This document shows, piece by piece, positions 6,139 through 63,857 of a stretch of 64,000 nt of DNA. A program made the position numbers and the translations under genes. The stretch lies in assembly GCA_963705705.1 (NCBI GenBank), contig CAVPKK010000007.1:96001-160000 (forward strand), written 5' to 3'. Below the pieces are notes generated by a model. That model did not search any database and was not told the origin of the DNA. It saw only the letters and a program-made list of their open reading frames with translations. Position 1 is the stretch's first letter. Each line of letters opens with the position of its first letter. The stretch comes from an uncultured bacterium. GTDB taxonomy: Bacteria > Babelota > Babeliae > Babelales > JABCYS01.

Positions 6139-6215
6139 TGGCGGGGCTGGCGAGACTCGAACTCGTGACCTTTCGCGTGACAGGCGAACGCTCTAACCAA
6201 CTGAGCTACAGCCCC
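6139..6215 (-). tRNA. tRNA-Asp(GTC)
   Basis: Cloverleaf with anticodon arm TTCGC-CTGTCAC-GCGAA, TTCGA T-loop, encoded CCA. Confidence 0.97.
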
Positions 6216-6219
6216 TAAA

Positions 6220-6294
6220 TGGCTCCCCGGGCAGGGATCGAACCTGCGACCTAACGATTAACAGTCGTTTGCTCTGCCGCTGAGCTACCGAGGA
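6220..6294 (-). tRNA. tRNA-Asn(GTT)
   Basis: Anticodon arm AACGA-CTGTTAA-TCGTT, T-loop, CCA. Confidence 0.97.
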
Positions 6295-6315
6295 ATAATA
6301 TATCAAAAAATTTTA

Positions 6316-6390
6316 TGGTGGGCGATACAGGGCTCGAACCTGTGACCCCCAGTTTGTAAGACTGATGCTCTACCGCTGAGCTAATCGCCC
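6316..6390 (-). tRNA. tRNA-Val(TAC)
   Basis: Anticodon arm TCAGT-CTTACAA-ACTGG, T-loop, CCA. Confidence 0.97.
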
Positions 6391-6596
6391 ATATATTCTT
6401 CTAAAAAGAGGCCTAAAAGGTACTCAAAATGCTTGGCAAAGTCAAAGGCGACTTTGAAAAGCCCGAATTGCTCGCCCAGCATCTACAACTACGGATTTAT
6501 CGTTCGATCAAAATGATAGCTTGGCTGATTTTAACAGCCTCAAGAAACTTGCGTTCCGGTCCTTTCTTTCATACTATGCCAATAAATAAAAAAAAC

Positions 6597-6648
6597 CCGT
6601 TCGTCCTGAGTGTTTTGCGCAGCAAAATGTATCGAAGGATGCGAACGG
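6597..6648 (+). repeat. Palindromic repeat family A, long variant with an extra internal hairpin
   Basis: ccgttcgtcctgagtg-ttttgc-gca-gcaaaa-tgtatcgaaggatgcgaacgg. Confidence 0.8.
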
Positions 6649-6681
6649 CGGCCTTAATTCCTCAGCATTTCCGGAGAGCTC

Positions 6682-7614
6682 ATGACCCACCAAAAGACCA
6701 CCCTTTCAGACATTTTGCGCAATGTTTTCTATATCTTTTTAATCATTGCTATTGCCCCGCCCATCGTCCAACAGATATGGGGCTCATTTACGCGCGTGGC
6801 CGAAACCCGGACTAAAGTCGCCTGGGTCGAAATCGATGATTTAGTAGAAGATTCAGGGCCCTATGTGAGCCAGCTCAAAAAATATTTTGGCGATAAAGAA
6901 ATCAAAGCAATTTTACTTAAAATGGAGTCTCCAGGAGCGGTGGCGGGTTCTGCCCAAGCGTTATTTAATGAAATTATGCACTTCAAAAAGGAACATCCAA
7001 AACCGGTGATTACCCTAGTAGAAAATACCTGTGCAAGTGGCGGCTATTGGATAGCGTGCTCAGCAGATCACATTATTGCTTCATCAGTGGCTAAGATTGG
7101 TAGTATCGGTGTGGTAATTCGGGCATTCACCGTAAAAGATTTGCTTGACCAATATAAGATTCATTACACGCCAGTTACCGCAGGCGCCTATAAAACTGCC
7201 GGCGATCCATTTACCACGATGACCGAAGCGCAAAAGAAGATGTTGGATGAAATGACACATCAAACATATGAGCAGTTTACGGCTTCAATCGCAAGTCGCC
7301 GACCGAAATTATCTCTTAAGGATTTAAACACCTGGGCCGATGGCAAAATTTTTATCGGGGCTGAAGCATTAAAGCTTGGTCTGATTGATGAGTTAGGTTC
7401 AATTTCTACTGCCGAGGCGTGGCTGCGCAAACATGCATCGATCGAAGGAAAAATTGAATGGGTAAGAATGGAAGGCCCATCGCTTTGGGAACGATTCACG
7501 GGCAAAGCACACAGCTATTATTCTTCCGATACCTCGATGAATGAAGCCATGGTTGAAAAAATAGCTTCAAAAATAATGACGCAGCTTTCTGCTCACGGTT
7601 TCATGTTTGTTTAA
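6682..7614 (+). CDS. sppA: Signal peptide peptidase SppA (36K type, peptidase S49)
   Basis: ESPG, CASGGYWIA, GSIGV, YKTAG, ADGKIF, GLIDELG motifs; N-terminal TM helix. Confidence 0.93.
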   Translation: MTHQKTTLSDILRNVFYIFLIIAIAPPIVQQIWGSFTRVAETRTKVAWVEIDDLVEDSGPYVSQLKKYFGDKEIKAILLKMESPGAVAGSAQALFNEIMHFKKEHPKPVITLVENTCASGGYWIACSADHIIASSVAKIGSIGVVIRAFTVKDLLDQYKIHYTPVTAGAYKTAGDPFTTMTEAQKKMLDEMTHQTYEQFTASIASRRPKLSLKDLNTWADGKIFIGAEALKLGLIDELGSISTAEAWLRKHASIEGKIEWVRMEGPSLWERFTGKAHSYYSSDTSMNEAMVEKIASKIMTQLSAHGFMFV

Positions 7615-8558
7615 GACGACATACCAGATGCTTTGGCTGACAAAATTGCAACAGCAGTAATTGCGCGCATATCGATTAACGGCTTCACACTGATTTCGTA
7701 ATTAACACCAACTCGTTCGGCTTGCGTTATGCGGCCCAGAATAAATCCACGTGGGAATAATAGTCCTTCACCGCTTGTAATTACCACATCATCCGGCTGC
7801 ACTTCAAATAGATGGCTTATATGGCAGAGCTTGCCATTGTCGGTGGTATTATTGCCTTCATAGATGCCATATACCTGATGTTGCGTACAAATGGCTGAAA
7901 CTTTGCATGAGCGATCGGTGACCAGCAAAACTTTGCTCAGGTGCTCATATACTTCGGTGATGCGGCCAATTAAATTATTTTGGTAGACGCACACCATATC
8001 AACTTCCAGGCCTTGGTCTTTTCCGCCTTCAATGATGAGGAAGTGAGCGTCGGGGGAGATGTTTCTGAGGATTACGGGGGCGAGTAGGTTGTTTGAGGAA
8101 TTATCTATTTGTTTAAAATTCCGGTTCAAGTCGCTCTCGCGCTTCGATTCTTCGATTAACTCAGAATGAGCGCGGTTTAAATTATTTACGATTTTTTGGT
8201 CGTCAGCAATGTCATCCAAATTTGTAATAACATCATGTGTAATTGTTTCGTAGTGCAACGCAGCATGTGCATTTGCCAATGCAGATTGTGTCCAAGCAAG
8301 TTCTTGTTGTACGTTGTCGAGTTGTTGTAGTGCCTGTGCCACGCTCATGCGTTGTCGTTTTTTTTCTTTCCAATAACTAACCCATGAAGATTGCATAGAA
8401 AGGATTGGCTGCATAATGCGCGAAGCGTATTGCTCAGCAGTGCCAGGTTGGTGTGAAAAGAAACGATTGGCAACAAAAAATACTAAAATGGCGATTATAA
8501 GAAAATTAAGAAGCGGTTCCTTGTGCAGATTCTTTATGTTCTTCACGCGACTTGCCAT
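7611..8558 (-). CDS. mreC: Rod shape-determining protein MreC
   Basis: N-terminal TM, coiled coil, GKDQGL..DM, LIGRI.EV....SKVLLVTD, VITSGEGLLFPRG motifs. Confidence 0.9.
   Translation of the reverse strand: MASRVKNIKNLHKEPLLNFLIIAILVFFVANRFFSHQPGTAEQYASRIMQPILSMQSSWVSYWKEKKRQRMSVAQALQQLDNVQQELAWTQSALANAHAALHYETITHDVITNLDDIADDQKIVNNLNRAHSELIEESKRESDLNRNFKQIDNSSNNLLAPVILRNISPDAHFLIIEGGKDQGLEVDMVCVYQNNLIGRITEVYEHLSKVLLVTDRSCKVSAICTQHQVYGIYEGNNTTDNGKLCHISHLFEVQPDDVVITSGEGLLFPRGFILGRITQAERVGVNYEISVKPLIDMRAITAVAILSAKASGMSS
8138..8174 (-). repeat. Family A palindrome inside mreC, read in-frame as RAHSELIEESKR
   Basis: cgcgcttcgattcttcgattaactcagaatgagcgcg, nearly identical to intergenic copy 63177-63213. 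Confidence 0.9.
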
Positions 8559-11118
8559 TTACAATACGAAGATACAAACGTTTGGCAGATTCGATTGCCA
8601 CTAGATAAACAATGCAGAAGATACCAAAGTATCGCAGAAGTTGCCAATTCAATGGCACAAATTGGAAAAATTCTTGGCCCCAAGAGGTAAACGGAAGCCC
8701 AAGTGTTATGATTACCGAAAGTATCAATGGTGTGAGTAATGTGCGTGAAGGCGGTACTGCACGCCAGAATGGTTTATTAGAACGCACAACCAATAAGAAG
8801 ATCCCTTCTGAAAGCATACTTCCTACAAACCAACACGTACGCAATGTGGCAACGCCAAATTGGCTGAACCAAAGGAATAAAGAAAAATCGAATAATGAAC
8901 TGAACATACCCATGCCGGTCGTAAACATAGCAATATCTTTGAGGCTATACTGCTTTGGCTCTTTCAATTCAGAGGGTTCAACATAGTCAGTCGACAAAGC
9001 CAATAATGGGATATCAGAAAGAATGTTAAGCAATAAAATTTGGATAGGCAGTATTGGCAAATAGTCTACGAATAATGAAACGATAGCCATCGCATAGAAG
9101 TTGCCAAAACTACCCGAGAGACTCACCTTGATATATTTAATAGTGTTTGCGAAAATCGTGCGCCCATGATGAATGCCATCAATAATTACATGCAAACTTT
9201 TTTTGAGCAATACGATATCGGCGGCTTCGCGTGCAATGTCGGCAGCGCCCTCAACCACCATCGCCACGTGCGCGGCATGTAATGCAGGTGCGTCATTGAT
9301 GCCATCGCCCATAAACCCAACATGCTTACCATGGCTCTGCAACAATTTAATGATTTCATATTTTTGGTGCGGAGAAACACGAGCAAAAATGGCATAATCT
9401 TGTACCGCCTCGGTCTTTTCACGTTCACTCAGTTCAGCAAAAATATCGCCCATCATCACATCTTGAATAGATTTGCATAAACCAACCTGCACGCCCACAT
9501 AGCCGGCAACCTCAGGGCTATCACCGGTAAGGATTTTAATTTTTATACCAAGCTCTTGCGCAGATTTAATCGCAGAGAAGGTGCTGCTCTTGATTGGATC
9601 GACGAATGAAAGCAAACCAACAAAGGTAAGTGATTCCTCAGCTGCGCGCACATCGTCTGGTTTTGTTGCAAATTCACGTATCGCTATACCTATCACGCGG
9701 CGCCCTTCTTCTCCCTGATGAAACACAAATCGTTGAATGTCTTCACTTTGTTGTTGAGAAATATTATTTGTATGTTTAAGTAGCTCTTCGTGGCCACCCC
9801 ATACAATGAGAATGTATGAATCAGTAACTGGGTTATGAAATAGCTCACTGCTCCGTCTACGGTCAGGCTCAAATGGAATGAAAGCAACCGGCTGATGTGT
9901 GCACGCGAATTCTTTTGATGCATTGGCAGCGTGTGCCATAATTGCATCATCGAATGGCGATGCATTGGATGATTGACCTTCAGTACTACGGCCTGCACAG
10001 GAATGGTTGGCAAATAAGCAGGCGTAATTAAGTAATGAGTTTTGGGTAGAACCGACCTCATACTTATCAACCAATGTCAGTTTATTTTCCGTCAGCGTAC
10101 CGGTTTTATCCGTGCACAAAATATCAATACTTCCCAGATCTTCGATGGCGGTCAGTCGTTTTACGATTACTTTACGGCGTGCTAATTCCATTGCCCCTTG
10201 CGACAACGAAAGCGCGACAACCGTTGGCAATAATTCCGGCACAATAACAACTGCCAATGCGAGCACATAAATCCAATATTCAGGATCAAACAGCGGTGCA
10301 CCGCGCACAACAACGTGCATACCAATGGTGAGAATGCTGGCAACTATTACCATCCAGGCAATAAATCGTGAAAAGCGATTTATATTTTGCGTAAACAAAC
10401 TCTCTCTTTTTGATTCACTCAGCGTCTTCGCAATAGTGCCAAGCTCCATACGAGAGCCGGTTGCTAACACAACGGCATGGGCAGAACCAGATATCACGGT
10501 TGTAGAAGCAAAACAGAGATTAACTGCTTGATATGGTTGTTTGGGTTCTTGTTGCATAGCCGCATTTGTTTTTGCAACTGCAATTGTTTCGCCCGTGAGC
10601 GCTGATTCATCAACCTGAAAACCATGGCTTTGTATGATGCGCACATCGGCGGGAATGATATCCCCAGCTTCAAGGATAATAATATCGCCCGGCACAAGCT
10701 CGCGGGTAGGTATAACAATGACTGTTTCATCGCGAAGCGCATGGGTTTTGCTCACAATAAAATTTTTTAAATATAATAATGCGCGTGATGCTTTGTATTC
10801 CTGAAAAAAACCAAGCAATGCATTGATGGCAACGATCACAAGAATAATGCCTGCTTCAAGCATGTCTCGCGTCACAAAAAAGGCGATGGCAGCGGCACCT
10901 AAAAGTAGATAGACAAAAGAACAGTTAAATTGGCGCAAAGCTAGTTGGAACCATCCTTCTGTCTTTTGCACAATTTCGTTATAGCCATATTGCTTGAGAC
11001 GTTTTGTTACGTCTGCATCCTTAAGGCCCTCGCGCTGCGTCTCTAGGTCAGATAAAACTTGCTCTATGGATTGGGTGGCATACTTTGACAACATTTCGAA
11101 CTCCAACATTCTGCACAT
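8506..11118 (-). CDS. mgtA: P-type ATPase, MgtA-like (probable Mg2+ importer); true start may be 11094
   Basis: DESALTGE, PELLP, DKTGTLT phosphorylation site, TGD, GDGINDAPAL; multiple TM helices. Confidence 0.8.
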   Translation of the reverse strand: MCRMLEFEMLSKYATQSIEQVLSDLETQREGLKDADVTKRLKQYGYNEIVQKTEGWFQLALRQFNCSFVYLLLGAAAIAFFVTRDMLEAGIILVIVAINALLGFFQEYKASRALLYLKNFIVSKTHALRDETVIVIPTRELVPGDIIILEAGDIIPADVRIIQSHGFQVDESALTGETIAVAKTNAAMQQEPKQPYQAVNLCFASTTVISGSAHAVVLATGSRMELGTIAKTLSESKRESLFTQNINRFSRFIAWMVIVASILTIGMHVVVRGAPLFDPEYWIYVLALAVVIVPELLPTVVALSLSQGAMELARRKVIVKRLTAIEDLGSIDILCTDKTGTLTENKLTLVDKYEVGSTQNSLLNYACLFANHSCAGRSTEGQSSNASPFDDAIMAHAANASKEFACTHQPVAFIPFEPDRRRSSELFHNPVTDSYILIVWGGHEELLKHTNNISQQQSEDIQRFVFHQGEEGRRVIGIAIREFATKPDDVRAAEESLTFVGLLSFVDPIKSSTFSAIKSAQELGIKIKILTGDSPEVAGYVGVQVGLCKSIQDVMMGDIFAELSEREKTEAVQDYAIFARVSPHQKYEIIKLLQSHGKHVGFMGDGINDAPALHAAHVAMVVEGAADIAREAADIVLLKKSLHVIIDGIHHGRTIFANTIKYIKVSLSGSFGNFYAMAIVSLFVDYLPILPIQILLLNILSDIPLLALSTDYVEPSELKEPKQYSLKDIAMFTTGMGMFSSLFDFSLFLWFSQFGVATLRTCWFVGSMLSEGIFLLVVRSNKPFWRAVPPSRTLLTPLILSVIITLGLPFTSWGQEFFQFVPLNWQLLRYFGIFCIVYLVAIESAKRLYLRIVNGKSREEHKESAQGTAS

Positions 11119-12134: not shown

Positions 12135-12301
12135 CGATATCTCCGCAATTCCTATTTCTGTTGTAACAAGAACAAATTAATGCACGCAAGACTTTGCAGC
12201 CGGTCGCGAAATGATTGTTATACAGCCACCAATTCTTGAAACAATTTAGTCAATAATATGAAAATATATCTAATAAACCGTGGCTTAATTTGAGGATCAA
12301 G

Positions 12302-13135
12302 ATGGCTAAAACAATCTGGAAAGGCTCAATATCTTTGGGCCTACTGAATATTCCCATCGAACTGTATACCGCAGTCCGCGAGCATGCGATAGGATTTAAA
12401 TTGTTGCACGCAAAGTGTCATACACCTATTCGTAATAAACGATGGTGTGATACATGCAATAAGGAAGTTTCATGGGATGAAACTATCAAAGCATTGCCGC
12501 TAGAACATAAAAATGGCAAGGAAGCATATTTTTTAATCACTCCTGATGCTCTCAAAAAACTGCGACCAGAAAAAACAGATACGATTGATATTGTTGAATT
12601 CTTAGAACATGAAAATATCCCGACGGTCTATTACGATAAGCATTATTATGCAGGGCCAAGCAGCAAAGCAAGTGAAAAGGCGTTTCTTTTATTTGTAACC
12701 GCATTGAGCAAAACAAAAAAGGTAGCCATCGGCCGCTTTGTGATGCGTGATAAAGAATATGCTGTTTGCATGGAACCATATAATGGCATTTTATTAATCA
12801 CCACGCTTAATTATGCGTATGAGGTGGTAGCCATTGATACTATTCCCGCATTAAAACGAGAGCACGGGCATCTAGAAGAAGTTAAAACGACTACACAAGA
12901 GATGGAAGTCGCTCAAAAACTGATCAGCCTGCAGACGGTTAAGAAGTTTGATATATCCGATTTCAAGGATACTTTTGCCGAAAAGTTAAAGGAAAAGATA
13001 AAGGAAGAGGCCAAAGGTCATGTGACAAAGCGTGTGCCTAAAGAAAAACCGAAGGCAGTAAAAGGCGAACAGCCTTCATTGCTTAAACTGTTGGAAGCTA
13101 GTATTCCAAAAGGCAGGAAAAGCAAAGTCAAATAA
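12302..13135 (+). CDS. ku: Non-homologous end joining protein Ku
   Basis: MAKTIWKGSISLGLLNIPI, TIDIVEF, YYDKHYY, GRFVMRDKE; basic C-terminal tail. Confidence 0.93.
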   Translation: MAKTIWKGSISLGLLNIPIELYTAVREHAIGFKLLHAKCHTPIRNKRWCDTCNKEVSWDETIKALPLEHKNGKEAYFLITPDALKKLRPEKTDTIDIVEFLEHENIPTVYYDKHYYAGPSSKASEKAFLLFVTALSKTKKVAIGRFVMRDKEYAVCMEPYNGILLITTLNYAYEVVAIDTIPALKREHGHLEEVKTTTQEMEVAQKLISLQTVKKFDISDFKDTFAEKLKEKIKEEAKGHVTKRVPKEKPKAVKGEQPSLLKLLEASIPKGRKSKVK

Positions 13136-13145
13136 AAGTCTTGCA

Positions 13146-13298
13146 CAAGCAACATAACGGAGACAGGCTCAGGATGAGCGGGGAGGGTTTAAATTGTCAG
13201 ATGATGTGTTGCCTACAAATTGAGAGGGTTTGGAGGGAGACTCTCTCCCTCCCGAGAACGATGGGGAGGGGTGTTAGGGGAGGGAACGGACCCTTAGC
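13146..13298 (+). repeat. G-rich intergenic element family C, copy 1 (contains a half family-A palindrome at 13162-13181)
   Basis: 5' block 20/22 and 3' block 35/36 identical to 24361-24444; internal hairpin ggagggaga-ctc-tctccctcc. Confidence 0.85.
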
Positions 13299-13377
13299 AC
13301 AAACCTAAATAACCAATTAAGGTGAATTAAGAAAATAGCCGTTCTTCTCAGTCCTTAAACTTCTCGATGAAATTGTT

Positions 13378-14283
13378 ATGGCTTATAAACTAAAACCAAT
13401 GCTCACCAAGCGCGGTGATAAGCATATACTTAAATCGCATGCTTATTTGTTTGAACCAAAACTTGATGGCTATCGCGCACTATGCGTAAAAAAAGATGGC
13501 AAGCTTCATTTCTACTCGCGCAACGGTCTTACTATGACCAAATACCCCGAACTGCAACATCCAAGCCTTATTAAAGCAAAATCAGCAATAGTTGATGGTG
13601 AAATTATTGCCTATGGACCAGACGGCATGCCGCACTTTCAAGCCTTGCAACAAGGCAATCGGGCCGTTTACATCATTTTTGATATTCTCGAGAAAAACGG
13701 CAAATCGCTGATTGATTTACCCTTAACTGAGCGCAAAAAGATATTGGCAAAGACAGTACGCGATGGTAAAGAAATTGAAAAAATATTTGATACTGCCGAC
13801 GGCGAAGCTCTGTGGAACCAAATGGTTAAGCATCATCTTGAAGGAGTTATGGCCAAGATACCGGACAGCAAATACTACCCAGGCGAACGGACGAGCGTCT
13901 GGCTCAAAGTTAAGATTCATGAAACAGTTGATGCGGTTATAGTTGGTTATACCAGTGAAAAAAGAAACATTTCTGCGCTCATATTAGGCCTGTATGATGG
14001 CAATCAATTGGTCTATATCGGCAAAGTTGGTACCGGGTTTAATGAAGAAAATATGGCCAAGTTGGAAAAAAAGTTTACAAACAAACACCGAGTAAAACCG
14101 CCAAAAGGCTTTGCGCCAAACAAAAAAGTTAAAGATGTACATTGGCTTTCACCGACCGTTGCCTGCGAAATCAAATATGCCAACGTAACAGGCGAAGGTA
14201 TCTTACGAGCACCTGTCTTTCTGCGCATACGCCATACCAAAACTGCAAAGCAATGCACAATCGACCAGATAAAAAAGGTTTAA
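13378..14283 (+). CDS. ATP-dependent DNA ligase (LigD ligase domain only / LigC-like)
   Basis: FEPKLDGYR adenylation motif, VDGEII, FDIL, EGVMAK, WLKVK, GKVGTGF, LRAPVF; next to Ku. Confidence 0.9.
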   Translation: MAYKLKPMLTKRGDKHILKSHAYLFEPKLDGYRALCVKKDGKLHFYSRNGLTMTKYPELQHPSLIKAKSAIVDGEIIAYGPDGMPHFQALQQGNRAVYIIFDILEKNGKSLIDLPLTERKKILAKTVRDGKEIEKIFDTADGEALWNQMVKHHLEGVMAKIPDSKYYPGERTSVWLKVKIHETVDAVIVGYTSEKRNISALILGLYDGNQLVYIGKVGTGFNEENMAKLEKKFTNKHRVKPPKGFAPNKKVKDVHWLSPTVACEIKYANVTGEGILRAPVFLRIRHTKTAKQCTIDQIKKV

Positions 14284-15891: not shown

Positions 15892-16233
15892 ATGACCTCA
15901 ATTGCTCGTGGCATTACCAAATTCACTGAACGCGAAATCCAACACTTATTTGCTACCGCGCGTCCAGTTTTGCGCACACCAGCAATTGAAATCCGAACCG
16001 CGCCGGCGACATTGGCATATGGCCGCGTGCTTATCGTAATTCCACGCCGCGTTGGCACGGCGCCTGAACGCAACAAGATCAAACGATGGATTAAGGCATT
16101 GTTTTACCAAGAAAAATGGTACGCCGCCGGCCTTGATGCCATCATGCTCATCCGGCCCGCGGCTAAAGAATTGGATTATTATAAACTCAAGGCGCTACTG
16201 AGTAATATATATATTAGAATCAGAGCAAGTTAA
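15892..16233 (+). CDS. rnpA: Ribonuclease P protein component
   Basis: RRVGTAPERNKIKRWIK (RNR motif); size; yidD downstream. Confidence 0.8.
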   Translation: MTSIARGITKFTEREIQHLFATARPVLRTPAIEIRTAPATLAYGRVLIVIPRRVGTAPERNKIKRWIKALFYQEKWYAAGLDAIMLIRPAAKELDYYKLKALLSNIYIRIRAS

Positions 16234-16235
16234 GT

Positions 16236-16270
16236 CCGCTCATCCTGAGTTAATCGAAGGATCAAAGCGG
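16236..16270 (+). repeat. Family A palindrome
   Basis: ccgctcatcctgagttaatcgaaggatcaaagcgg immediately after the rnpA stop. Confidence 0.92.
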
Positions 16271-22286: not shown

Positions 22287-22469
22287 ATGGTAAAGAGACG
22301 TAAAGCCGCTGGAGCTAAAAAAGCTGCTGGTGCAAAGAAGAGCCCTGCTCGTCGTGTTAAGAAAACTGCGACAAAGAGAGCTGGCGCCAAGAAAACAGCT
22401 AAGCGTAAGACGCCAGCGCGTAAAAAGACCGCTGCTCGTTCAACGCGTACTAGCTATTTCTCGCTATAA
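22287..22469 (+). CDS. Histone H1-like basic protein (Hc1/Hc2-like composition)
   Basis: 60 aa K/A/R-rich (AKK repeats), AAGGAG RBS, own terminator. Confidence 0.75.
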   Translation: MVKRRKAAGAKKAAGAKKSPARRVKKTATKRAGAKKTAKRKTPARKKTAARSTRTSYFSL

Positions 22470-23153
22470 TCTACCGTAAAAGGGGCACTGTTTTTTACGA
22501 AACGGTGCTCTTTTTTTTGCCAAAATCTCAGATACCTGATTTTTCCGCGGGGCATTCTGGCCCCATTTTACAAATAAATGATTAACTTCCGACCAATATT
22601 TCTTCGGTAGTAATTCCATTAAAGCCACTTCAGTCTGATCCGCAGTCTTGGTATGTACCAAGCCAAATTGATTAGCTAACCGATGCACATGAGTATCTAC
22701 GCAGATGGCCGGCTTGCCAAAGGCAACGCTTAATACCAAGGCGGCTGTCTTGTGGCCAATGCCTTTGATAGAAAGTAATTCATCTTCGGTATTAGGCACC
22801 TTTTCATGAAACCGATCAATCAATTCTTTGCTCACACTTTTTAATGTCTTAGCCTTATTGTGATAAAAACCGATTGGCTTAATAATCCGCTCCAGCTCAC
22901 GCAGGGGAATCGCCAACATTTCTTGCGGCGTACGCGCCACTTCAAATAACTTTTTGGAAATTGGATACGTAACCGCATCACGCGCACGCAGACTAAGCAG
23001 ACAGCTTATGAGTATTAGATAGGGATCATTGTTATATTCATCCTTGATACGTTCCGACATCGGCTCGGGGAAGTTTTTCGTCTTCTTTCGCAGAATTTTG
23101 ATTATTTTAAGTGCATATGCACGACGAGTTTTTAAATCATTTTTTTTCAGCAT
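22464..23153 (-). CDS. nth: Endonuclease III (HhH-GPD glycosylase) lacking the C-terminal 4Fe-4S motif
   Basis: DPYLILISCLLS, GFYHNKAK, LLSIKGIGHKTA, VDTHVHRL. Confidence 0.9.
   Translation of the reverse strand: MLKKNDLKTRRAYALKIIKILRKKTKNFPEPMSERIKDEYNNDPYLILISCLLSLRARDAVTYPISKKLFEVARTPQEMLAIPLRELERIIKPIGFYHNKAKTLKSVSKELIDRFHEKVPNTEDELLSIKGIGHKTAALVLSVAFGKPAICVDTHVHRLANQFGLVHTKTADQTEVALMELLPKKYWSEVNHLFVKWGQNAPRKNQVSEILAKKRAPFRKKQCPFYGRL
22478..22518 (+). terminator. Intrinsic terminator of the histone-like gene, overlapped by the nth 3' end
   Basis: aaaaggggcactgttt-loop-aaacggtgctctttttttt. Confidence 0.75.
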
Positions 23154-23207
23154 GGTATTGAACACATATATTTTGATCTAGACCGTTTATCGTAACATGG
23201 CCCGAAT

Positions 23208-23242
23208 CCGCTCATCCTGAGTTTATCGAAGGATCAGAGCGG
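23208..23242 (+). repeat. Family A palindrome
   Basis: ccgctcatcctgagtttatcgaaggatcagagcgg. Confidence 0.92.
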
Positions 23243-23367: not shown

Positions 23368-24285
23368 ATGGATTTGGCATCATTCAAACAGCATACCAAA
23401 AGTTTTCTGCAGCATATTGCTGTAGAGAAAAACTTGGCCGCCAATACCCGGCGGGCCTACACAAGCGATTTAGAACAGTTTATTGAGTTTTGGGACCGTA
23501 TAACACAAGATAATTCGCCCTTGCCCATGGCCACAGTGCTTGAACGCTTTTTTGTAAGTCTCTACCACCAAAAAATTAATAAGAGCTCCATCGCACGAAA
23601 GCTATCCTGCTTTAAATCATTCGAAAAATATCTTCGTATTGCGGGGGTGGAATTCAAAATAAACCTTGCCCGGCCACGGCTGGATAAAAAGTTGCCTGTG
23701 TATCTGAGCGTCGATGAAATATTTTACCTCCTTGATAGCATTAAGCATGAGGATCTTCCTACCAAAAAACCATTGCGCGATAAGGCCGTATTGGAATTAT
23801 TGTATGCCACGGGAGTGCGATGCGCTGAGTTAGTTGGTATTAAAATTGGCGACATTAATGTTGATCAAAAATGTGTGCGCGTTTATGGCAAAGGCCGCAA
23901 GGAACGAATGGCCTTATTCGGCGAACGGGCAAAGAAAAGTATTTTGGAATTCATCCAAAAAGAGCGGGGTCCAGTTACGTCGCTCAACGACCCACTTTTT
24001 AATAGCTTCAAAAACAAGCCGCTGACCACCCGTTCAGTCCAACGTATCATTGGGATGTTCCGAAATGTACTTAACACCGGCCGCCCTATTTCACCCCACA
24101 AAATCCGTCACTCATTTGCCACTCATATGCTACACCAAGGAGTTGATCTTCGGGTTGTGCAAGAACTATTGGGCCACGCTTCACTGTCCAGCACCGAGAA
24201 ATACACGCACGTCTCGAGCCAACAACTGGCAGCTATGTGCGATACCTTGCACCCTATTCATAAGATGATTAAAAATAATAAATGA
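23368..24285 (+). CDS. xerC: Tyrosine recombinase XerC/XerD family
   Basis: LELLYATGVRCAEL, GKGRKER, HKIRHSFATH, VQELLGH, TEKYTH. Confidence 0.88.
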   Translation: MDLASFKQHTKSFLQHIAVEKNLAANTRRAYTSDLEQFIEFWDRITQDNSPLPMATVLERFFVSLYHQKINKSSIARKLSCFKSFEKYLRIAGVEFKINLARPRLDKKLPVYLSVDEIFYLLDSIKHEDLPTKKPLRDKAVLELLYATGVRCAELVGIKIGDINVDQKCVRVYGKGRKERMALFGERAKKSILEFIQKERGPVTSLNDPLFNSFKNKPLTTRSVQRIIGMFRNVLNTGRPISPHKIRHSFATHMLHQGVDLRVVQELLGHASLSSTEKYTHVSSQQLAAMCDTLHPIHKMIKNNK

Positions 24286-28910: not shown

Positions 28911-28929
28911 AAAGAGCGAGAGTAATCCG

Positions 28930-30438: not shown

Positions 30439-30453
30439 AAAGGCGGGAGGAAT

Positions 30454-36396: not shown

Positions 36397-36504
36397 CTTT
36401 TGTACCTCATTTATATATTCTTTAGGAAGGTAAAGTATAGTACAATCTGGCAATCTTATAAACTGGTTGGACAAGCTTTGGCCACGGCCTAACCCTGGAT
36501 ACCC

Positions 36505-36916: not shown

Positions 36917-36953
36917 CGCGCTCATCCTGAGTTTATCGAAGGATCGTAGCGCG
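36917..36953 (+). repeat. Family A palindrome
   Basis: cgcgctcatcctgagtttatcgaaggatcgtagcgcg. Confidence 0.92.
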
Positions 36954-42865: not shown

Positions 42866-43007
42866 ATCTCTCCAGCTGCTGTGCAATCTGTATGACAACA
42901 GATCTTTTATTTATTCTTCCTTTTTCAAGGCGTCATGTTAAGGGTATAACAAAAGCTAAAGCAGAAAAGCAAGATATATTTATTTTATTGCGCCCTGTCG
43001 ACAAAAA

Positions 43008-46719: not shown

Positions 46720-48477
46720 TTACTGATTATTTCGTTCCATATTTTGCAGATGCTGCAACAATCCTTGCTCGGCAGGTTCCGCCTCTGGCGCTGGTTCCAA
46801 CTGTCCCAGCAGTCGTTCTCGTTCCAAAAGACCAAGGCGCTGAACTAATTGATGTTCTGTTTCATTTCTATCCTCAGTCAATGGTTCCATTGCCAAAATA
46901 TGTCGTGCTATATCGACAGGTATTTGAGCTTCCTCATACCGTGAAATGAGATCTGATATAACTGGCAGATGGTGCTGACTAAGGAGGTTAAGCCGTGGCT
47001 GGTTGTTCGCTTGTTGAGCTCGTACATACGCCTTGAGCCGTGCAAGCAAGGTTGGATTTCGTTGAATGTGATTAAGCAACTCTCTGTTCATCCGATATCC
47101 CATCGAACCAGGATCAGATACATTTGAGAAGGTTGCCAGAAGAAAGCCAATTCTTTCGCCTGAAATGAATTGGCGGGCCATGGCCTCAGATAAACCACTG
47201 ACTTGAGGTAACCGCGCAAACAGCCCTGGAGACCCAACCCTCGCCGCTAAGCCTTCAGCCTGAACCATCCTGGTCGCAAAAGCTTCGGTCCAAAGATTAG
47301 ACAACTCGGGCGCCCCGTAGAGAGAAAAAGGCAATCCAGCACTAAAGGATGGTAGTTTTAGAAAGGGTCTATTATTTTGAATATGATCTTCGTCTAGAAC
47401 AGGCAAAATCTTGTTTTGAGCTGCCAAAAGCATTCTAAGTATGTCAGGATAATTTTCCTGGCTTGGTTTCTCTGGAAAACCTATGTGCGCAAACAGTTCA
47501 TCAGCAAAGCTTGTATCAACAACATGGCTACTAACAAAAATCCGATCTATTGCATCCCCAATAATAGATTTAGCATTTTTATATGCTTCAATATCATTGC
47601 GATCCAGTCTGGAAGTCATTGCATCCAATAATAGTTCGACAACATCAGCATGTCCGCCAACGGCCGCTAATGATAAAGCGGTTTGCCTTACCAAACTCAA
47701 TAAATTGCTCAGTTCATAGTTTGTGACAGCATCACGCAACAGAATTTGTTTTTCAGCTAGGTAAGGTCGTCTAAATTCTTTTGCACGAACCCTCTCAAAT
47801 AGCTGGCATATCGCCCGTGCATTAATTGTTGCTTCAGGATTTATCATGCCTGGCAGCAACCTATTGCAGAATTCAAGGCGGCCGCCATCTTCTGCTGCAA
47901 GAGATTGTCGAGCTAATTGCACATCTCCTGCCGCGGCCGCCCGCATTAATGGAGTCTCAAGAAAAGCATTCGGGCCTTGCTCAGGCTGCTTGCTTTCTTG
48001 ATCCGGCATTTGCCTTTGTTCCGGCCCATTTTGAACTTGAGGTCCAACGCCTATGGCATATGATCGAGATGCTGGTGAGCTGCTATTGCTTAGACTAGAT
48101 GAAGGCTTTCGAGCTGGTTCCTGCTTCTTTTCCTCTTCCCGATCGCCCTGAGGATTCGACAGGCTCATTGGTAAACGTCCTTCGATATTTGACGTCGAAT
48201 CGTTTACTCCTGAGTAGCCGATAGGCGTATCGAAGGATCGAAGGGGCTGCTCATTTTTTTCCGCCTTGAGCGTCGCGATCTCACGCAATAACTCTTGCTC
48301 TCGTGTTTCACGCTGCCGTTGCTCAGCTTGCATGGCCATCATTTGTTGCTGCATTGCCAACATCTGTTGTTGCATTGCGGCCAACAAATCAGGTGTAGGA
48401 TTATTATTAGTTGCTAGCGCACATACTGGCGCCAGTAATAAGGTGAATATTAATTTTTTCAACATTTTTAATTCCAT
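46720..48477 (-). CDS. Exported ankyrin-like effector family, member 2
   Basis: TPDLLAAMQQQM, SYAIG, TPLMRAAAAG, TALSLAAVGGH. Confidence 0.85.
   Translation of the reverse strand: MELKMLKKLIFTLLLAPVCALATNNNPTPDLLAAMQQQMLAMQQQMMAMQAEQRQRETREQELLREIATLKAEKNEQPLRSFDTPIGYSGVNDSTSNIEGRLPMSLSNPQGDREEEKKQEPARKPSSSLSNSSSPASRSYAIGVGPQVQNGPEQRQMPDQESKQPEQGPNAFLETPLMRAAAAGDVQLARQSLAAEDGGRLEFCNRLLPGMINPEATINARAICQLFERVRAKEFRRPYLAEKQILLRDAVTNYELSNLLSLVRQTALSLAAVGGHADVVELLLDAMTSRLDRNDIEAYKNAKSIIGDAIDRIFVSSHVVDTSFADELFAHIGFPEKPSQENYPDILRMLLAAQNKILPVLDEDHIQNNRPFLKLPSFSAGLPFSLYGAPELSNLWTEAFATRMVQAEGLAARVGSPGLFARLPQVSGLSEAMARQFISGERIGFLLATFSNVSDPGSMGYRMNRELLNHIQRNPTLLARLKAYVRAQQANNQPRLNLLSQHHLPVISDLISRYEEAQIPVDIARHILAMEPLTEDRNETEHQLVQRLGLLERERLLGQLEPAPEAEPAEQGLLQHLQNMERNNQ
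48155..48245. repeat. Cluster of family A palindrome pieces inside the member 2 coding linker
   Basis: + strand cgtttactcctgagta-gcc-gata-ggc-gtatcgaaggatcgaaggg (48201-48245); - strand cgtttaccaatgagcctgtcgaa. Confidence 0.7.
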
Positions 48478-51621: not shown

Positions 51622-53973
51622 TTATATAACCGAGCGAAGACGCTCAATTTCCTTTTTGATATCGTTAACTATTGGCTGCAGCAAGATTGAAATTTCTGTC
51701 GGCCCGCCAAAGTATTGAATCTTGGTTTTTGGATTTATTTGTGCAAGCATCTCAAGGGACATTGCCAGAGTATCAGCAGTGTACGGTTGGGTAGTATGCA
51801 AAAGCAAAACCTGATAGATTTGATCTGATTGACGTCTTAACTTCAAATCCATGCAAGCATTTAATAGTTCTTTCAATCGCGCCATGATTGTTTCCTTTTG
51901 TAGCCAACAGGCAAAAATACGCTGAATAACTTCTGCCGGCAGCTGTCTGTGATGTGCGGATGCATAACCTCGTACGAGGTCCGACAACACAGGAGGTAAT
52001 TCGGGATTAATCATATGATCCATCTGCAACTTGATCGACTGCTGTTCGCGAATAAACTCTTTCAAGCGATTTAGAAATATTGGATTCAATTGCTGATTGT
52101 GCTCAGTAGTTGTAAGCATAAATTCTCTCAATTGAGCAATTAATGATCCAGGTGCAGCATCAACGGTAAATAAAACAGCTAACTTTTCGCCGCAGGTAGA
52201 GTGTTGAATAAGATCTAGCCACTGAATTGAAAGACTGCCTGATAAGTCCGCCAATGACTCAGCAATTACTTGGAGCATATCAGTTGTGCCATGCTTTATC
52301 GCATTTTCAAATGTTTTTGAGATTTTTTCGCGATAATAAGCACCATTGCCGATCTGCACCTTTATTTCATATATAATGCGCGCCGCCTCAATAAGATTGC
52401 ATACTATTGCTTTGTATTGATCATGCGTTGGTTTTTCTCGTATGCCCATCGCTTCCAATAAACCATCGGCAACATCTGTTGAAATAAGATCAGAATACAA
52501 TATAAGCTTATGGATAGCTTCGTAAATGCTATTAATGCAATTTTGTTGCTCTTCATCATTCTTATTTGCAAATCCATCGAGTAGAGCTTCGGTTAGGAGT
52601 GCCACTGTTTCTTGATGTCCGCCAATCGCAGCGAGAGAAAGTGCATCAAGATCGCTTATTAGTTCGCCATGTCTAATCTCGCGGTTTTTACCAAGGACGG
52701 TATCACTGAGGATTGCAGTACCATCCTCACTAATACTCGATTCATACACGCGCGTGACCATTCTATGAAGCCATCGAGCCCCATTAGAGATTCCTACATT
52801 CCAATACGTTGACGGTACATTAATCGCATCTTTAAATAAGAGGCTCATAAGCTGCTTTATATTAATTTTAATTGTGCGATCTACCATCCAGGGGCAAAGT
52901 GCTACCTTTGCATAAAGATCAGCTTTTTTTGCGATGCAAAGTTCTACGCCCGCTGTATGGTTGGCAGCAGCAAATCGCATAAGTGGAGTAAATCCATTAT
53001 GAGAATTTGCAAACCAATCGAAAATGAATAGAAAAAGTTCACGAAGGGTTTGCCATTCGTGCGAATTCAAACTATCTACAGCTACGTCTAACCTTGACGC
53101 AATGGGTATAGCACCAGTTATTAAGCCTGGACGAACCTTTTTGAAAATCGCCAATGTCTTATTAAATAGTTGCATCAATGATTTAGGATTTATCAGAGTT
53201 AACCTTCTTCGATCTCGTTTATTGATGCTATCTGGATGCTGCTGAAAAAATTGGGCTATATCTTGAATATCTTGCGAATCTACGGCGTTAAATAAGGGAT
53301 CGCTGCTTATTGAATCATCAATTACATCCAGCAAGCGATCTATTTCGCGACCAACTAGGGCCACGATCATCTGGCGGGTAACAGGTTGCTGCTGTTGCGC
53401 CAAAAACTCATCTGGTAATTCCCCAACAATTTTTTGAAGAAGTTCGGCAGCATTTGATCGCAAGCCTGCTAAATATGCGCGGAACTCTTCAGGTGAAAGC
53501 TTTTGAAGATCTACAAGCGATTGCGGCAAATTGTTTTTTTCTTGTTCTTTTGCTTCTTCTGGCTTTGGCTTTTTACGCTCAACCCGATCATCCTGAGCGT
53601 GTCGAAGGATTGCTTCTTCACATTCCTTTTGCTCTTCACGTTGCGTGGGTTTGGCTAAAGGTTTTTTTTCTTCAGTTATTTGAGCAGATTGCTTTCTCGG
53701 CTGTTCAGGTTCTTTGCGGTCTTCTCTCTCCCCTTCCTGCTTGCTGTCTGGAATTTTGCTCTTATTTTCCGGAACGGGCAGATGAGCAGCAGGATCACCG
53801 ATAGCATATGAAGTTGACGGGCGAGGAACGCTACTATCGTTAGCATTATTTGCCGCAACCCTTTGCGCCGCCAATTCGCGACGGATTTGTTGCAGTGTTT
53901 TTGCGGGTTTGCCAGATGGCATAAGGGCAGCTGGCGTAAGTAATAAAATTAGAGATAAACGATTTAGTAGCAT
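51622..53973 (-). CDS. Exported ankyrin-like effector family, member 5
   Basis: SYAIG, GFTPLMRFAAA, ALSLAAIGGH, GEKLAVL. Confidence 0.85.
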   Translation of the reverse strand: MLLNRLSLILLLTPAALMPSGKPAKTLQQIRRELAAQRVAANNANDSSVPRPSTSYAIGDPAAHLPVPENKSKIPDSKQEGEREDRKEPEQPRKQSAQITEEKKPLAKPTQREEQKECEEAILRHAQDDRVERKKPKPEEAKEQEKNNLPQSLVDLQKLSPEEFRAYLAGLRSNAAELLQKIVGELPDEFLAQQQQPVTRQMIVALVGREIDRLLDVIDDSISSDPLFNAVDSQDIQDIAQFFQQHPDSINKRDRRRLTLINPKSLMQLFNKTLAIFKKVRPGLITGAIPIASRLDVAVDSLNSHEWQTLRELFLFIFDWFANSHNGFTPLMRFAAANHTAGVELCIAKKADLYAKVALCPWMVDRTIKINIKQLMSLLFKDAINVPSTYWNVGISNGARWLHRMVTRVYESSISEDGTAILSDTVLGKNREIRHGELISDLDALSLAAIGGHQETVALLTEALLDGFANKNDEEQQNCINSIYEAIHKLILYSDLISTDVADGLLEAMGIREKPTHDQYKAIVCNLIEAARIIYEIKVQIGNGAYYREKISKTFENAIKHGTTDMLQVIAESLADLSGSLSIQWLDLIQHSTCGEKLAVLFTVDAAPGSLIAQLREFMLTTTEHNQQLNPIFLNRLKEFIREQQSIKLQMDHMINPELPPVLSDLVRGYASAHHRQLPAEVIQRIFACWLQKETIMARLKELLNACMDLKLRRQSDQIYQVLLLHTTQPYTADTLAMSLEMLAQINPKTKIQYFGGPTEISILLQPIVNDIKKEIERLRSVI
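53584..53610 (+). repeat. Family A palindrome core inside member 5 (antisense, read as ILRHAQDDR)
   Basis: ccgatcatcctgagcgtgtcgaaggat. Confidence 0.75.
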
Positions 53974-62846: not shown

Positions 62847-62907
62847 TCTAAAATTTAGTCACTTCAGTCTAAATTGAGTCTTGAAAGCTTTGATTCCTTA
62901 ATGTTGA

Positions 62908-63217
62908 TGATTAAGTCTCCTCAGCGCTCATCCTGCATGTCCGCCAAAGCTCATGGAGTTGTAGAAATTCTTACTGACGCAAGGAGACCGCGCTCATCCT
63001 GAGTTAATCGAAGGATATAGCGCGCGAAGGCAAAATGCATCGGCGGAAGTTTATCGAAGGATAAAAGCGCTACAGCGACATTGCCGACCCATAATAAATT
63101 TGTAGTTCCTTTAGTCCTTGAATAAATTTATTCAAAGGAGGAATGATTTTTTTATTGCCGCTTACTATGTCTTCCTCGCGCTCTGATTCTTCGATTAACT
63201 CAGAATGAGCGCGGCGT
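62908..63217. mobile_element. Internally deleted (non-autonomous) copy of the GIY-YIG cassette, with nested palindromes
   Basis: Both arms match 63337-63857; family A copies at 62923-63071 (split), 62989-63024 and 63177-63213. Confidence 0.7.
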
Positions 63218-63336: not shown

Positions 63337-63857
63337 TGATTAAGTTTTTAGCGCTCATCCTGAGTTTATCGAAGGATAAAAGCGCTACAGTGATATTGTT
63401 AACCCATAACCAAATCATAAAATCCATCCTTTAACTTATGAATCATTTCTTCGTTTACATCCTTAAATGTAGCAACGGCAGATTTTACACCGGACACACC
63501 GACAACCTCGAACTCCGACTATCCGAACACAAACAAAGAAAAGACCCAAAATGCTATACCGCAACCCGCTTGCCGATCCAATTGGTTTTTCATGCCGTTT
63601 TTGAGTCCCGTGAAGCAGCCTTTAATGCTGAAATGAAGATCAAAGGATGGTCCAGGGAGAAAAAGGAAGCCTTAATTAATGGTGATTGGGAGGAACTGAA
63701 GCGGCTGTCCAATTTAAAAAATGATTTGGCCAATTCGCAATCATATTGGCGATCGATATCGTTTGAGATATTAAAGGATGTATGAATTCATTTATTACCG
63801 CTTACTGAGTCTTCCTCGCGCTTTTATCCTTCGATAAACTCAGGATGAGCGCGGCGT
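63337..63857. mobile_element. GIY-YIG nuclease cassette bracketed by inverted family A palindromes
   Basis: 63350-63386 (+) and 63817-63853 (-) flank a single gene. Confidence 0.7.
63438..63785 (+). CDS. GIY-YIG nuclease (UPF0213/YhbQ-like)
   Basis: FVYILKC...FYTGHT.NL..RL.EH, YT..R.P, A...E..IKGWSR.KKEAL. Confidence 0.93.
   Translation: MNHFFVYILKCSNGRFYTGHTDNLELRLSEHKQRKDPKCYTATRLPIQLVFHAVFESREAAFNAEMKIKGWSREKKEALINGDWEELKRLSNLKNDLANSQSYWRSISFEILKDV

What the first reader, a model, noticed from the sequence alone, without database searches (positions are those of the whole stretch)
8138..8174. Palindrome sitting in-frame inside the housekeeping gene mreC
The copy is nearly identical to intergenic 63177-63213 yet is translated as RAHSELIEESKR. 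It lies in an apparently lengthened linker between the MreC coiled coil and beta domains. Established precedent: Rickettsia palindromic elements insert in-frame into conserved proteins. The high identity to the copy beside the GIY-YIG gene suggests a recent event.
Basis: partly seen in the sequence, partly recalled or inferred. Interest (0 to 1): 0.75.

Follow-up and report, generated by a model that had tools for sequence, protein, structure and literature searches.

The report
Mobile hairpin repeat translated inside mreC
A 40-base hairpin repeat that otherwise sits between genes in this Babeliales-like bacterium lies in frame in the flexible linker of the cell-shape protein MreC, adding about a dozen amino acids without breaking the gene.

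Summary
Window 8138-8174 matches 63177-63213 at 35 of 37 bases (38 of 40 over 8136-8175). It is one of 8 copies of a hairpin repeat in the window; 7 are intergenic, although only 9% of the window is non-coding. Compensatory changes keep the stem paired.

The copy lies inside an intact mreC (7611-8558, minus strand, 315 aa). It is read as RAHSELIEESKR (residues 129-140) in the only stop-free frame of that orientation. It sits between the coiled coil and the beta domain.

None of 42 MreC homologues carries this peptide. 40 of 43 MreC proteins have a 27-28-residue linker. The window's three-member clade has 63, 66 and 109 residues. One clade member carries two other hairpin-derived peptides in the same linker.

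No empty-site orthologue and no target duplication could be found.

The repeat is REP-like, not an RPE. Perfect 35-nt inverted copies bracket a small UPF0213 (Slx1-like) GIY-YIG gene, next to a gene-less inverted doublet. The same loop motif flanks GIY-YIG homologues in Sphingomonas and Methylobacterium. It is also translated into the tails of 31 of 120 homologues.

Mobilisation by the GIY-YIG nuclease is inferred, not shown.

The parts
8136..8175 (-). Hairpin repeat copy inside mreC (core palindrome 8138-8174). It is read as R129-R140, RAHSELIEESKR.
   Evidence: 68.9 bits; 40 nt, 95% to 63175-63214. Folds at -8.9 kcal/mol as DNA and -14.5 kcal/mol as RNA.
7611..8558 (-). mreC, an intact 315-aa ORF. 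It has N-terminal helices (model H13-36, H38-117), a linker that holds the repeat, and the MreC beta domain.
   Evidence: AlphaFold2 model of low confidence (mean pLDDT 53.4).
63175..63214 (-). Closest sister copy (38/40 identical). It forms the right arm of the gene-less inverted doublet.
62988..63214 (.). Gene-less inverted doublet (REPIN-like). It has 29-nt arms, 93% complementary, with 169 nt between them. The interior keeps remnants of both flanks of the GIY-YIG unit.
   Evidence: I3, D1, D3; folds at -53.1 kcal/mol, z -6.8, 0 of 200 shuffles as low.
63351..63385 (+). Left arm of the perfect 35-nt inverted repeat that brackets the GIY-YIG gene.
   Evidence: I1, 100% complementary.
63438..63785 (+). 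Small stand-alone GIY-YIG nuclease gene (115 aa) of the UPF0213 / Slx1-like type.
   Evidence: PF01541. (PDB 1zg2 E 5e-14, 1ywl E 2e-9, both named UPF0213). (487 homologues).
63818..63852 (-). Right arm of the perfect 35-nt inverted repeat that brackets the GIY-YIG gene.
   Evidence: I1.
16236..16262 (+). Solo intergenic copy. It starts 3 nt after the stop codon of rnpA (15892-16233).
   Evidence: 69.6 bits.
23208..23234 (+). Solo intergenic copy between the divergent genes nth-like (22464-23165, minus strand) and xerC/D-like (23368-24285, plus strand).
   Evidence: 63.4 bits.
36918..36944 (+). Solo intergenic copy downstream of the UPF0102 gene (36505-36870).
   Evidence: 69.0 bits.
6597..6648 (+). 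Diverged relative of the hairpin. It has the same CTGAG...TCGAAGGA loop ends but an extra inner stem. It is intergenic.
   Evidence: -12.0 kcal/mol.
48210..48237 (+). Probable old, decayed relative of the hairpin. It is read in frame (...RSFDTPIGYSG...) inside the 585-aa ORF 46720-48477 (minus strand).
   Evidence: The canonical fold is lost (z -0.47).
53593..53609 (+). Probable old, decayed relative of the hairpin. It is read in frame (...ILRHAQDDR...) inside the 783-aa ORF 51622-53973 (minus strand).

Best explanation
A roughly 40-nt REP-like hairpin repeat has been copied into the coding sequence of mreC. It belongs to a family that is otherwise almost confined to intergenic DNA in this Babeliales-like genome.

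The copy survives for three reasons. (a) It landed in the one reading frame of its orientation that has no stop codon. (b) It adds a whole number of codons, encoding a hydrophilic stretch (RAHSELIEESKR) that the low-confidence model draws as helix. (c) It lies in the linker between the MreC coiled coil and the beta domain, which in this clade is already long and free to vary. MreC is therefore made about 13-16 residues longer and is not disrupted.

Shown: the repeat family, its hairpin with compensatory changes, its intergenic bias, the intact reading frame, the position in a clade-specific expanded linker, and the absence of the peptide from homologues.

Inferred: that the event was an insertion rather than another kind of sequence transfer, that it is fairly recent, and that the insert is a neutral passenger.

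Further inferred, with lower confidence (about 0.35): the hairpins are non-autonomous copies of an element whose full form is the UPF0213 (Slx1-like, structure-specific-type) GIY-YIG gene bracketed by inverted hairpins, and that nuclease acts on the extruded hairpins to spread them. This would parallel the REP/RAYT arrangement.
For: Repeat identity. 35/37 and 38/40 to the 63186 copy. There are 8 copies against 0 expected. The covariance model separates these 8 from everything else.

Structure. 93.8% of pair cells are paired, and 3 pairs change on both sides (G-C to C-G, C-G to U-A, C-G to A-U or U-A). 0 of 500 shuffles reach the observed covariation score, and slid controls give 27-52% paired.

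Selection against genic copies. 7 of 8 copies fall in the 9% of the window that is non-coding (binomial P 3.6e-7). Counting the 62988-63854 cluster as one locus gives 4 of 5 (P 3e-4).

Frame. For copies with the TTAA loop, only 1 of 3 frames per orientation is open, and mreC uses the open one.

Gene integrity. The ORF is complete, with Pfam MreC profile positions 1-146 of 147. Both halves match the same orthologues.

Linker. Between fixed anchors there are 63 residues here, 66 and 109 in the two sister proteins, and 27-28 in the other 40 of 43. The three long-linker proteins form one group with 100/100 support.

No shared peptide. Hairpin-type peptide patterns hit only P0001 (once) and P0002 (twice) among the 43. 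P0002 carries LRLTQDERG. That is exactly the open reverse-frame reading of the window copy at 62990. It also carries ARPEPVEGY, of the forward-frame type. So the same linker took up hairpins independently in a sister lineage.

Two further relatives of the hairpin in the window are read in frame in other ORFs.

No terminator-like site lies in mreC.

GIY-YIG link. A perfect 35-nt inverted repeat surrounds the gene, with an adjacent gene-less doublet. The motif CTGAG-N(3-30)-TCGAAG flanks the homologous gene in inverted pairs in 2 of 3 plasmid/chromid loci, L009 Sphingomonas and L011 Methylobacterium. 31 of 120 best homologues end in hairpin-derived peptides. The control gave 1 hit in 45 window proteins (19,392 aa), and that hit is the mreC insert itself.
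Against: No orthologue closer than 59% identity was found. There is therefore no empty site, and the insertion boundaries are set only by where similarity to other copies ends.

No target-site duplication was found. The best flanking repeat at mreC is 7/8 nt, reached in 259 of 2000 shuffles, and the other 7 copies show none.

The hairpin accounts for under half of the roughly 35 extra linker residues. The rest has no match elsewhere in the window.

Only 64 kb of the genome can be seen. The database record of the window's own MreC gives a longest contig of 332 kb. A closer donor copy may lie elsewhere.

The structural model is poor: mean pLDDT 53.4, and below 50 at all but four (132-135) of the insert's twelve residues. 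'Helical and tolerated' is therefore weak.

Translation of the insert has not been observed.

Against the GIY-YIG step: 0 of 8 loci in other phyla that carry the exact 24-mer have a GIY-YIG homologue within 1.5 kb. One of three plasmid homologues (L010) has no flanking motif. No activity on hairpins is known to me for this family.
Confidence: 0.78

Rival explanations
1. The copy in mreC is old. It was inserted in the ancestor of the long-linker clade or earlier. It looks young only because gene conversion with other copies keeps it homogenised.
For: The linker expansion is shared by all three clade members. P0002 has a forward-frame hairpin peptide (ARPEPVEGY) about ten residues from the aligned position of the window's insert. 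The two arms around the GIY-YIG gene are 35/35 identical although other copies differ at 4-10 of 40 positions. This shows that some homogenising process acts on this family.
Against: P0002's peptide comes from a different loop variant, and P0003 has nothing hairpin-like there. The mreC copy shares a rare compensatory double change with exactly one other copy. Descent from a common copy explains that more simply.
Confidence: 0.12
2. The hairpin in mreC has been recruited for a function. It could act as an RNA structure that pauses translation or is cut between the two MreC modules. Alternatively, its peptide could serve as a functional spacer that sets the reach of the beta domain.
For: The stem is still largely intact: -14.5 kcal/mol as RNA, with 8 of 200 shuffles as stable. 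All 4 solo copies (mreC, rnpA 3' side, UPF0102 3' side, xerC/D 5' side) have the same orientation relative to the neighbouring transcript. The clade tolerates or favours long linkers.
Against: The linker sequences of the three clade members are unrelated to each other, which argues against a specific requirement. One outer-stem pair is already lost relative to the sister copy. Four of four in one orientation has P = 0.125 (my arithmetic, no call).
Confidence: 0.07
3. The hairpins are not mobile DNA. They are protein-binding, transcript-end or transcript-stabilising structures that spread by recombination. Their link to the GIY-YIG gene is incidental, or reflects regulation of that gene.
For: No target duplications were found. 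Three solo copies sit directly at gene ends or between genes. Solitary copies in other phyla have no GIY-YIG gene nearby. The loop sequence is conserved across phyla while the stems vary, as expected for a binding site.
Against: The copies are not intrinsic terminators: no T run follows them, and none was called around mreC. A copy inside an essential-type gene is hard to explain by function, as are a gene-less inverted doublet and perfect terminal inverted repeats around a nuclease gene. The GIY-YIG gene lies between conserved neighbours in the plasmid loci (nrdR and an RNA methyltransferase; rnc and era), which looks like an inserted gene.
Confidence: 0.2
4. The finding is an artefact: a chance similarity, or a metagenome assembly chimera joined at a repeat.
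For: The sequence appears to come from a metagenome-assembled contig, and short repeats can mislead assemblers.
Against: 0 of 100 shuffles gave any match. Both sides of the junction align with the same orthologues in the same order, with 53-59% identity over 97-98% of the protein.
Confidence: 0.02

Closest known systems
Rickettsia palindromic elements (RPEs)
   Same: Both are palindromic repeats found between genes and also inserted in frame into unrelated, conserved protein genes. The host protein gains a peptide and stays intact. The review passage read in PMC10969869 describes this and notes that the inserts are predicted to be compatible with protein fold and function.
   Different: RPEs are described there as about 150 bp, with their own conserved ORF peptide, in Rickettsia. 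Here the unit is 40 nt (12-16 residues), the host is Babeliales-like, and the element is linked to a GIY-YIG gene.
REP / REPIN elements with their RAYT transposase
   Same: Both are short imperfect palindromes, mostly extragenic. They occur as singlets and as inverted doublets that fold into a long hairpin. Inverted copies flank a single small enzyme gene. This rests on the abstracts seen in the listings for PMC3116915, PMC2817692 and PMC3337134, and for the window.
   Different: The flanked gene is a UPF0213 GIY-YIG nuclease, not a Y1 (IS200/IS605-like) transposase. None of the 45 window ORFs scanned lists a transposase family at E <= 1e-5. The GTAG or CGTC end tag reported for the large REP superfamilies (abstract of PMC3733652) is absent from the consensus. 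REPs are by definition extragenic, and this copy is genic.
Bacterial MITEs that make in-frame fusions (intragenic ERIC, Coxiella QMITE1, named in PMC10969869)
   Same: A non-autonomous repeat with inverted ends can be read through as part of a host ORF.
   Different: MITEs have terminal inverted repeats, target-site duplications and a cognate transposase. Here no duplication was detectable, and the solo unit is a single 40-nt hairpin.
Free-standing and intron-borne GIY-YIG homing endonucleases
   Same: A GIY-YIG nuclease gene behaves as an inserted, possibly selfish gene between conserved neighbours.
   Different: According to PMC1564403 (passages read), homing endonucleases belong to the UvrC-like lineage and carry DNA-binding modules. 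The prokaryotic Slx1-like proteins are minimal, were predicted to act in repair, and are not described there as mobile or repeat-associated. The window protein matches the UPF0213 structures that the paper assigns to the Slx1 family.

Membership tests
Rickettsia palindromic elements (RPE) | Palindromic, multi-copy repeat in the genome | tested here: met
   8 copies. The hairpin is supported by covariation.
Rickettsia palindromic elements (RPE) | Copies inserted in frame in conserved protein genes without disrupting them | tested here: met
   The mreC ORF is intact through the copy. Two further diverged copies are read in frame in other ORFs. Translation itself was not observed.
Rickettsia palindromic elements (RPE) | Element of about 150 bp with its own conserved peptide (as described in PMC10969869) | tested here: not met
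   Similarity to other copies ends after 40 nt. The model span is 49 nt.
Rickettsia palindromic elements (RPE) | Sequence relatedness to the ten RPE families | not tested
The host is Babeliales-like, not Rickettsia.
REP / REPIN-RAYT | Short (20-40 nt) imperfect palindrome, predominantly extragenic | tested here: met
   The core is 37-40 nt. 7 of 8 copies are intergenic.
REP / REPIN-RAYT | Inverted doublets (REPINs) that fold as one long hairpin | tested here: met
   The doublet 62988-63214 folds at -53.1 kcal/mol, z -6.8.
REP / REPIN-RAYT | Flank a RAYT (Y1 transposase) gene | tested here: not met
   The flanked gene is GIY-YIG. None of the 45 window ORFs scanned lists a transposase family at E <= 1e-5. 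The rest of the genome is unseen.
REP / REPIN-RAYT | GTAG or CGTC tetranucleotide at one end (feature taken from the abstract of PMC3733652) | tested here: not met
   Neither tetranucleotide, nor its complement, is present in the consensus of alignment A2.
REP / REPIN-RAYT | High copy number per genome | not testable with these tools
   Only 64 kb is visible (8 copies). The window's genome was not found in genome contigs.
MITE | Terminal inverted repeats plus target-site duplication | tested here: not met
   Inverted ends exist for the doublet and for the GIY-YIG unit. No flanking duplication exceeds shuffles at any of the 8 copies.
MreC (host gene) | MreC beta-barrel core domain, preceded by N-terminal helices | tested here: met
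   PF04085 covers residues 162-306 with E 2.5e-29. NCBIfam MreC models match below their cut-offs. The model has helices 13-36 and 38-117, at low confidence.
UPF0213 / prokaryotic Slx1-like GIY-YIG | Minimal stand-alone GIY-YIG domain related to the solved UPF0213 proteins | tested here: met
   PF01541 E 1.3e-14. 1zg2 E 5.1e-14 and 1ywl E 2e-9. Catalytic residues were not examined individually. There is no NCBIfam hit.
Intrinsic terminator | GC-rich stem followed by a T run | tested here: not met
   0 terminator-like sites in 7500-8700. The flanks of the copies show no T run.
Any Rfam family | Match at gathering score | tested here: not met
   Only 3 tRNAs were found in the window. Sub-threshold hits at 62850-64000 are long-hairpin miRNA models far below their cut-offs.

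The most novel reading that the evidence does not exclude
The small UPF0213 (Slx1-like) GIY-YIG genes, together with hairpins that carry the conserved loop CTGAG-N(4 or more)-TCGAAGG, form a REP/RAYT-like selfish or domesticated system found across bacterial phyla. In this system a structure-specific GIY-YIG nuclease, not a tyrosine transposase, recognises and spreads the hairpins. The hairpins have open reading frames that encode hydrophilic peptides. They are therefore a recurrent source of new protein segments, including repeated growth of the MreC linker in one Babeliales clade.
Probability: 0.3. Interest if true: 0.85.

Novelty: new variant of a known kind. Interest (0 to 1): 0.6.

Why it matters
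In-frame take-up of palindromic repeats by conserved proteins is best documented in Rickettsia. Finding it in mreC of a Babeliales-like genome suggests it is a more general route by which compact intracellular-type genomes lengthen protein linkers. An independent take-up in the same linker of a sister lineage, and two further probable cases within 64 kb, strengthen that.

The more consequential lead is the element itself. The hairpin loop is conserved across phyla, and inverted copies bracket a widespread nuclease gene that has no established function. If the GIY-YIG protein mobilises or maintains these hairpins, that would give the UPF0213 family a function. It would also add a second enzyme class to REP-type systems. 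My library searches found no paper linking GIY-YIG genes with REP-like repeats. The library lacks most subscription journals, so this is not proof that the link is unpublished.

Tried and rejected
- Target-site duplication. The direct repeat flanking the mreC copy (7/8 nt) looked attractive because insert plus repeat would be 48 nt, or 16 codons. It is reached in 259 of 2000 shuffles, and the other copies show nothing. Rejected as evidence.
- Rfam. No family matches at gathering score. The miRNA-precursor hits at 62987-63215 and 63176-63387 score 38.7 and 21.2 bits against cut-offs of 211 and 230, and only reflect the long inverted doublet.
- Terminator reading. Rejected.
- Hammerhead-like reading of the CTGAG...CGAA loop. 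Considered by eye and rejected: the core lacks the required conserved nucleotides. This rests on recalled knowledge; no call was made.
- Structure prediction of MreC. Mean pLDDT 53.4 and pTM 0.25. This is too poor to say more than that the insert lies in a low-confidence helical stretch, so no fold search was run.
- Whether P0002's two hairpin peptides are one in-frame doublet like 62988-63214. The window's doublet has stops in all three frames, and its spacer is unrelated to P0002's. Left open.
- Genome scan with the 24-mer. It did not find the window's own genome or any Babeliales relative, so no genome-wide census was possible. It found 8 loci on 7 contigs from other phyla instead.
- The match at 29437-29456 to the looser motif is treated as chance. 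The expectation was 0.49 matches, and there is no stem.
What they hold stayed unchecked.

Full report
**Observation**

The 37-nt string at 8138-8174 recurs at 63177-63213 with two mismatches. No shuffle of the window produced any match. BLASTN of the mreC linker against the window extends the similarity to 40 nt at 95% identity, 8136-8175 against 63175-63214.

Both sequences belong to a family of eight copies: 8147-, 16236+, 23208+, 36918+, 62990+, 63186-, 63351+ and 63826-. A covariance model built from them scores these eight at 61.7-70.5 bits. Nothing else scores above 13.3 bits.

The unit is an imperfect hairpin. It has an outer stem of GCGCT(C) with (G)AGCGC, an inner stem of ATCCT with AGGAT, and an 11-nt loop, GAGTT(A/T)ATCGA. 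Across the eight copies 93.8% of pair cells are paired. Three pairs change on both sides, and 0 of 500 shuffles reach the observed covariation score. Slid controls drop to 27-52% paired.

**The host gene**

ORF 7611-8558 (minus strand, 315 aa) is MreC. Pfam PF04085 covers residues 162-306 with E 2.5e-29, and NCBIfam MreC models match below their cut-offs.

The copy is read as R129-R140, RAHSELIEESKR. An AlphaFold2 model from a 7-sequence alignment is poor (mean pLDDT 53.4). It places long helices at 13-36 and 38-117. The insert falls in a low-confidence helix, 124-152, just before the beta domain.

No terminator-like site is present in or around the gene. The closest named relative is annotated as a Candidatus Babeliales protein. 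The window's other genes fit such a genome: ankyrin, LRR, MYND and Vps62-domain proteins.

**Orthologue test**

The closest MreC proteins in about 5.8 billion clusters are only 59% (P0003) and 53% (P0002) identical. No empty site can therefore be shown.

A profile search gave 48 homologues. I analysed 43 of them and left out the five weakest. Between two anchors that flank the linker, 40 of the 43 have 27-28 residues with a conserved motif. The window protein has 63, P0003 has 66 and P0002 has 109. These three form one group with 100/100 support.

Their linkers are unrelated in sequence, and none of the 42 other proteins carries the window's peptide.

P0002 contains LRLTQDERG. This is letter for letter the open reverse-frame reading of the window copy at 62990. 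It also contains ARPEPVEGY, of the forward-frame type. The same linker thus took up hairpins independently in a sister lineage.

**Why the copy is tolerated**

For the loop variant concerned, each orientation has only one stop-free frame, and mreC uses it.

Seven of the eight copies lie in the 9% of the window that is non-coding (P 3.6e-7). Treating the 62988-63854 cluster as one locus gives 4 of 5 (P 3e-4). Genic copies are evidently selected against. The exception sits in a linker that is free to vary in length.

A looser motif finds three more relatives of the hairpin. One is intergenic (6597-6648, with an extra inner stem). Two are read in frame in long lineage-specific ORFs...ILRHAQDDR... 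in ORF 51622-53973, and ...RSFDTPIGYSG... in ORF 46720-48477. These two have lost the canonical fold, as expected for old copies.

**Age and origin**

The mreC copy is closest to the 63186 copy (38/40, next best 35/40). These two alone share a compensatory C-G to T-A change in the inner stem. The two differences between them are one synonymous change and one Glu/Lys change in the mreC frame, and they cost one outer-stem pair.

This fits a fairly recent common origin. Gene conversion of an older copy cannot be excluded, and most of the genome is unseen.

No target duplication is detectable at any copy. The hairpin explains only about 13-16 of the roughly 35 extra linker residues.

**The element**

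The GIY-YIG gene (63438-63785) is bracketed by a perfect 35-nt inverted repeat, 63351-63385 and 63818-63852. Next to it lies a 227-bp gene-less doublet, 62988-63214. Its interior keeps remnants of both flanks of the gene unit. It folds into one long hairpin at -53.1 kcal/mol, z -6.8.

The protein matches the solved UPF0213 proteins 1zg2 and 1ywl. PMC1564403 assigns these to the prokaryotic Slx1-like family of minimal GIY-YIG nucleases, predicted to act in repair (passages read).

Its homologues are numerous, at 55-65% identity in many lineages, and many lie on very short contigs. Thirty-one of the best 120 end in hairpin-derived peptides. The control gave one hit in 45 window proteins, and that hit is the mreC insert itself.

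Among three homologues on plasmids or chromids, two are flanked by inverted pairs carrying the same CTGAG...TCGAAG motif: Sphingomonas parapaucimobilis L009 and Methylobacterium bullatum L011. The third (L010) is not. In the two annotated loci (L009, L010) the gene sits between conserved housekeeping neighbours.

The exact 24-mer of the window's loop and inner stem occurs at 8 loci on 7 contigs. The record titles name Dehalococcoidia, Chitinophagaceae, Planctomycetota, Bacteroidetes, a deltaproteobacterium and an unclassified bacterium. The outer stems differ. None of these loci has a GIY-YIG homologue within 1.5 kb.

**Interpretation**

The best-supported reading is a REP-like, non-autonomous hairpin copied into a permissive spot of mreC and read through as a passenger. 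That the GIY-YIG nuclease is the mobilising enzyme is an inference from architecture and co-occurrence only.

The outcome resembles RPEs (review passage in PMC10969869). The anatomy resembles REP/REPIN-RAYT systems (abstracts). Membership of either family fails on defining features: size for RPE, and the transposase type and end tag for REP.

Six library searches found no paper that links GIY-YIG genes with REP-like repeats. One further search for palindromic repeats in Dependentiae found nothing relevant. These searches cover open-access papers and bioRxiv only.

**What stayed unchecked**

- The rest of this genome.
- The DNA of the sister mreC genes.
- The metagenome and viral contig collections, which were closed.
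- Any expression or peptide evidence.

Noticed in passing
window 63351-63852 and 62988-63214: A small UPF0213 GIY-YIG gene is bracketed by a perfect 35-nt inverted repeat, with a gene-less inverted doublet of the same hairpins beside it. The layout resembles REP/RAYT but has a different enzyme class.
   Followed up: partly
window 48210-48237 (ORF 46720-48477, minus strand) and 53593-53609 (ORF 51622-53973, minus strand): Two diverged relatives of the hairpin are read in frame inside long lineage-specific ORFs (one with a weak ankyrin match, one with no Pfam family). They are probably older in-frame take-ups.
   Followed up: partly
window 6597-6648: A variant hairpin has the same loop ends but an extra inner stem. 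It lies between a cluster of three tRNA genes (6142-6390, minus strand) and the S49 peptidase gene. The spurious-looking ORF 6429-6815 reads through it.
   Followed up: partly
L001-L008 (genome contigs): The exact 24-mer of the loop plus inner stem occurs in genomes of several phyla (Dehalococcoidia, Chitinophagaceae, Planctomycetota, Bacteroidetes, a deltaproteobacterium). The outer stems differ. Several of these loci hold further CTGAG...TCGAAG motifs nearby.
   Followed up: partly
L009 495-815; L010 501-866: In Sphingomonas replicons the homologous GIY-YIG gene sits between nrdR and an RNA methyltransferase gene, and between rnc and era. The latter pair is usually adjacent (recalled). This suggests an inserted gene.
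   Followed up: no
window 8506-8558: The longest mreC ORF overlaps the 3' end of the P-type ATPase gene (8506-11118, minus strand) by 53 nt. The orthologues begin four residues later, so the true start may be the GTG a few codons downstream.
   Followed up: no
window 33754-36576 (minus strand): An FtsH-like protein of 940 aa has two AAA modules (two Pfam AAA stretches and two AAA-lid stretches) before the M41 peptidase domain.
   Followed up: no
window 12290-14283: A Ku gene and an ATP-dependent DNA ligase gene lie close together (243 nt apart), forming a possible end-joining pair in a small genome that also carries these repeats.
   Followed up: no
window 26375-32010; 38077-40041; 40913-42898; 55991-57193: A tandem array of four LRR proteins, together with ankyrin, Vps62-domain and MYND zinc-finger proteins. 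This eukaryote-like repertoire is typical of intracellular bacteria (recalled).
   Followed up: no
window 62987-63215: Rfam plant miRNA-precursor models give sub-threshold hits (38.7 bits against a cut-off of 211). The cause is simply that the doublet is a long hairpin. This is a possible source of false annotation.
   Followed up: yes
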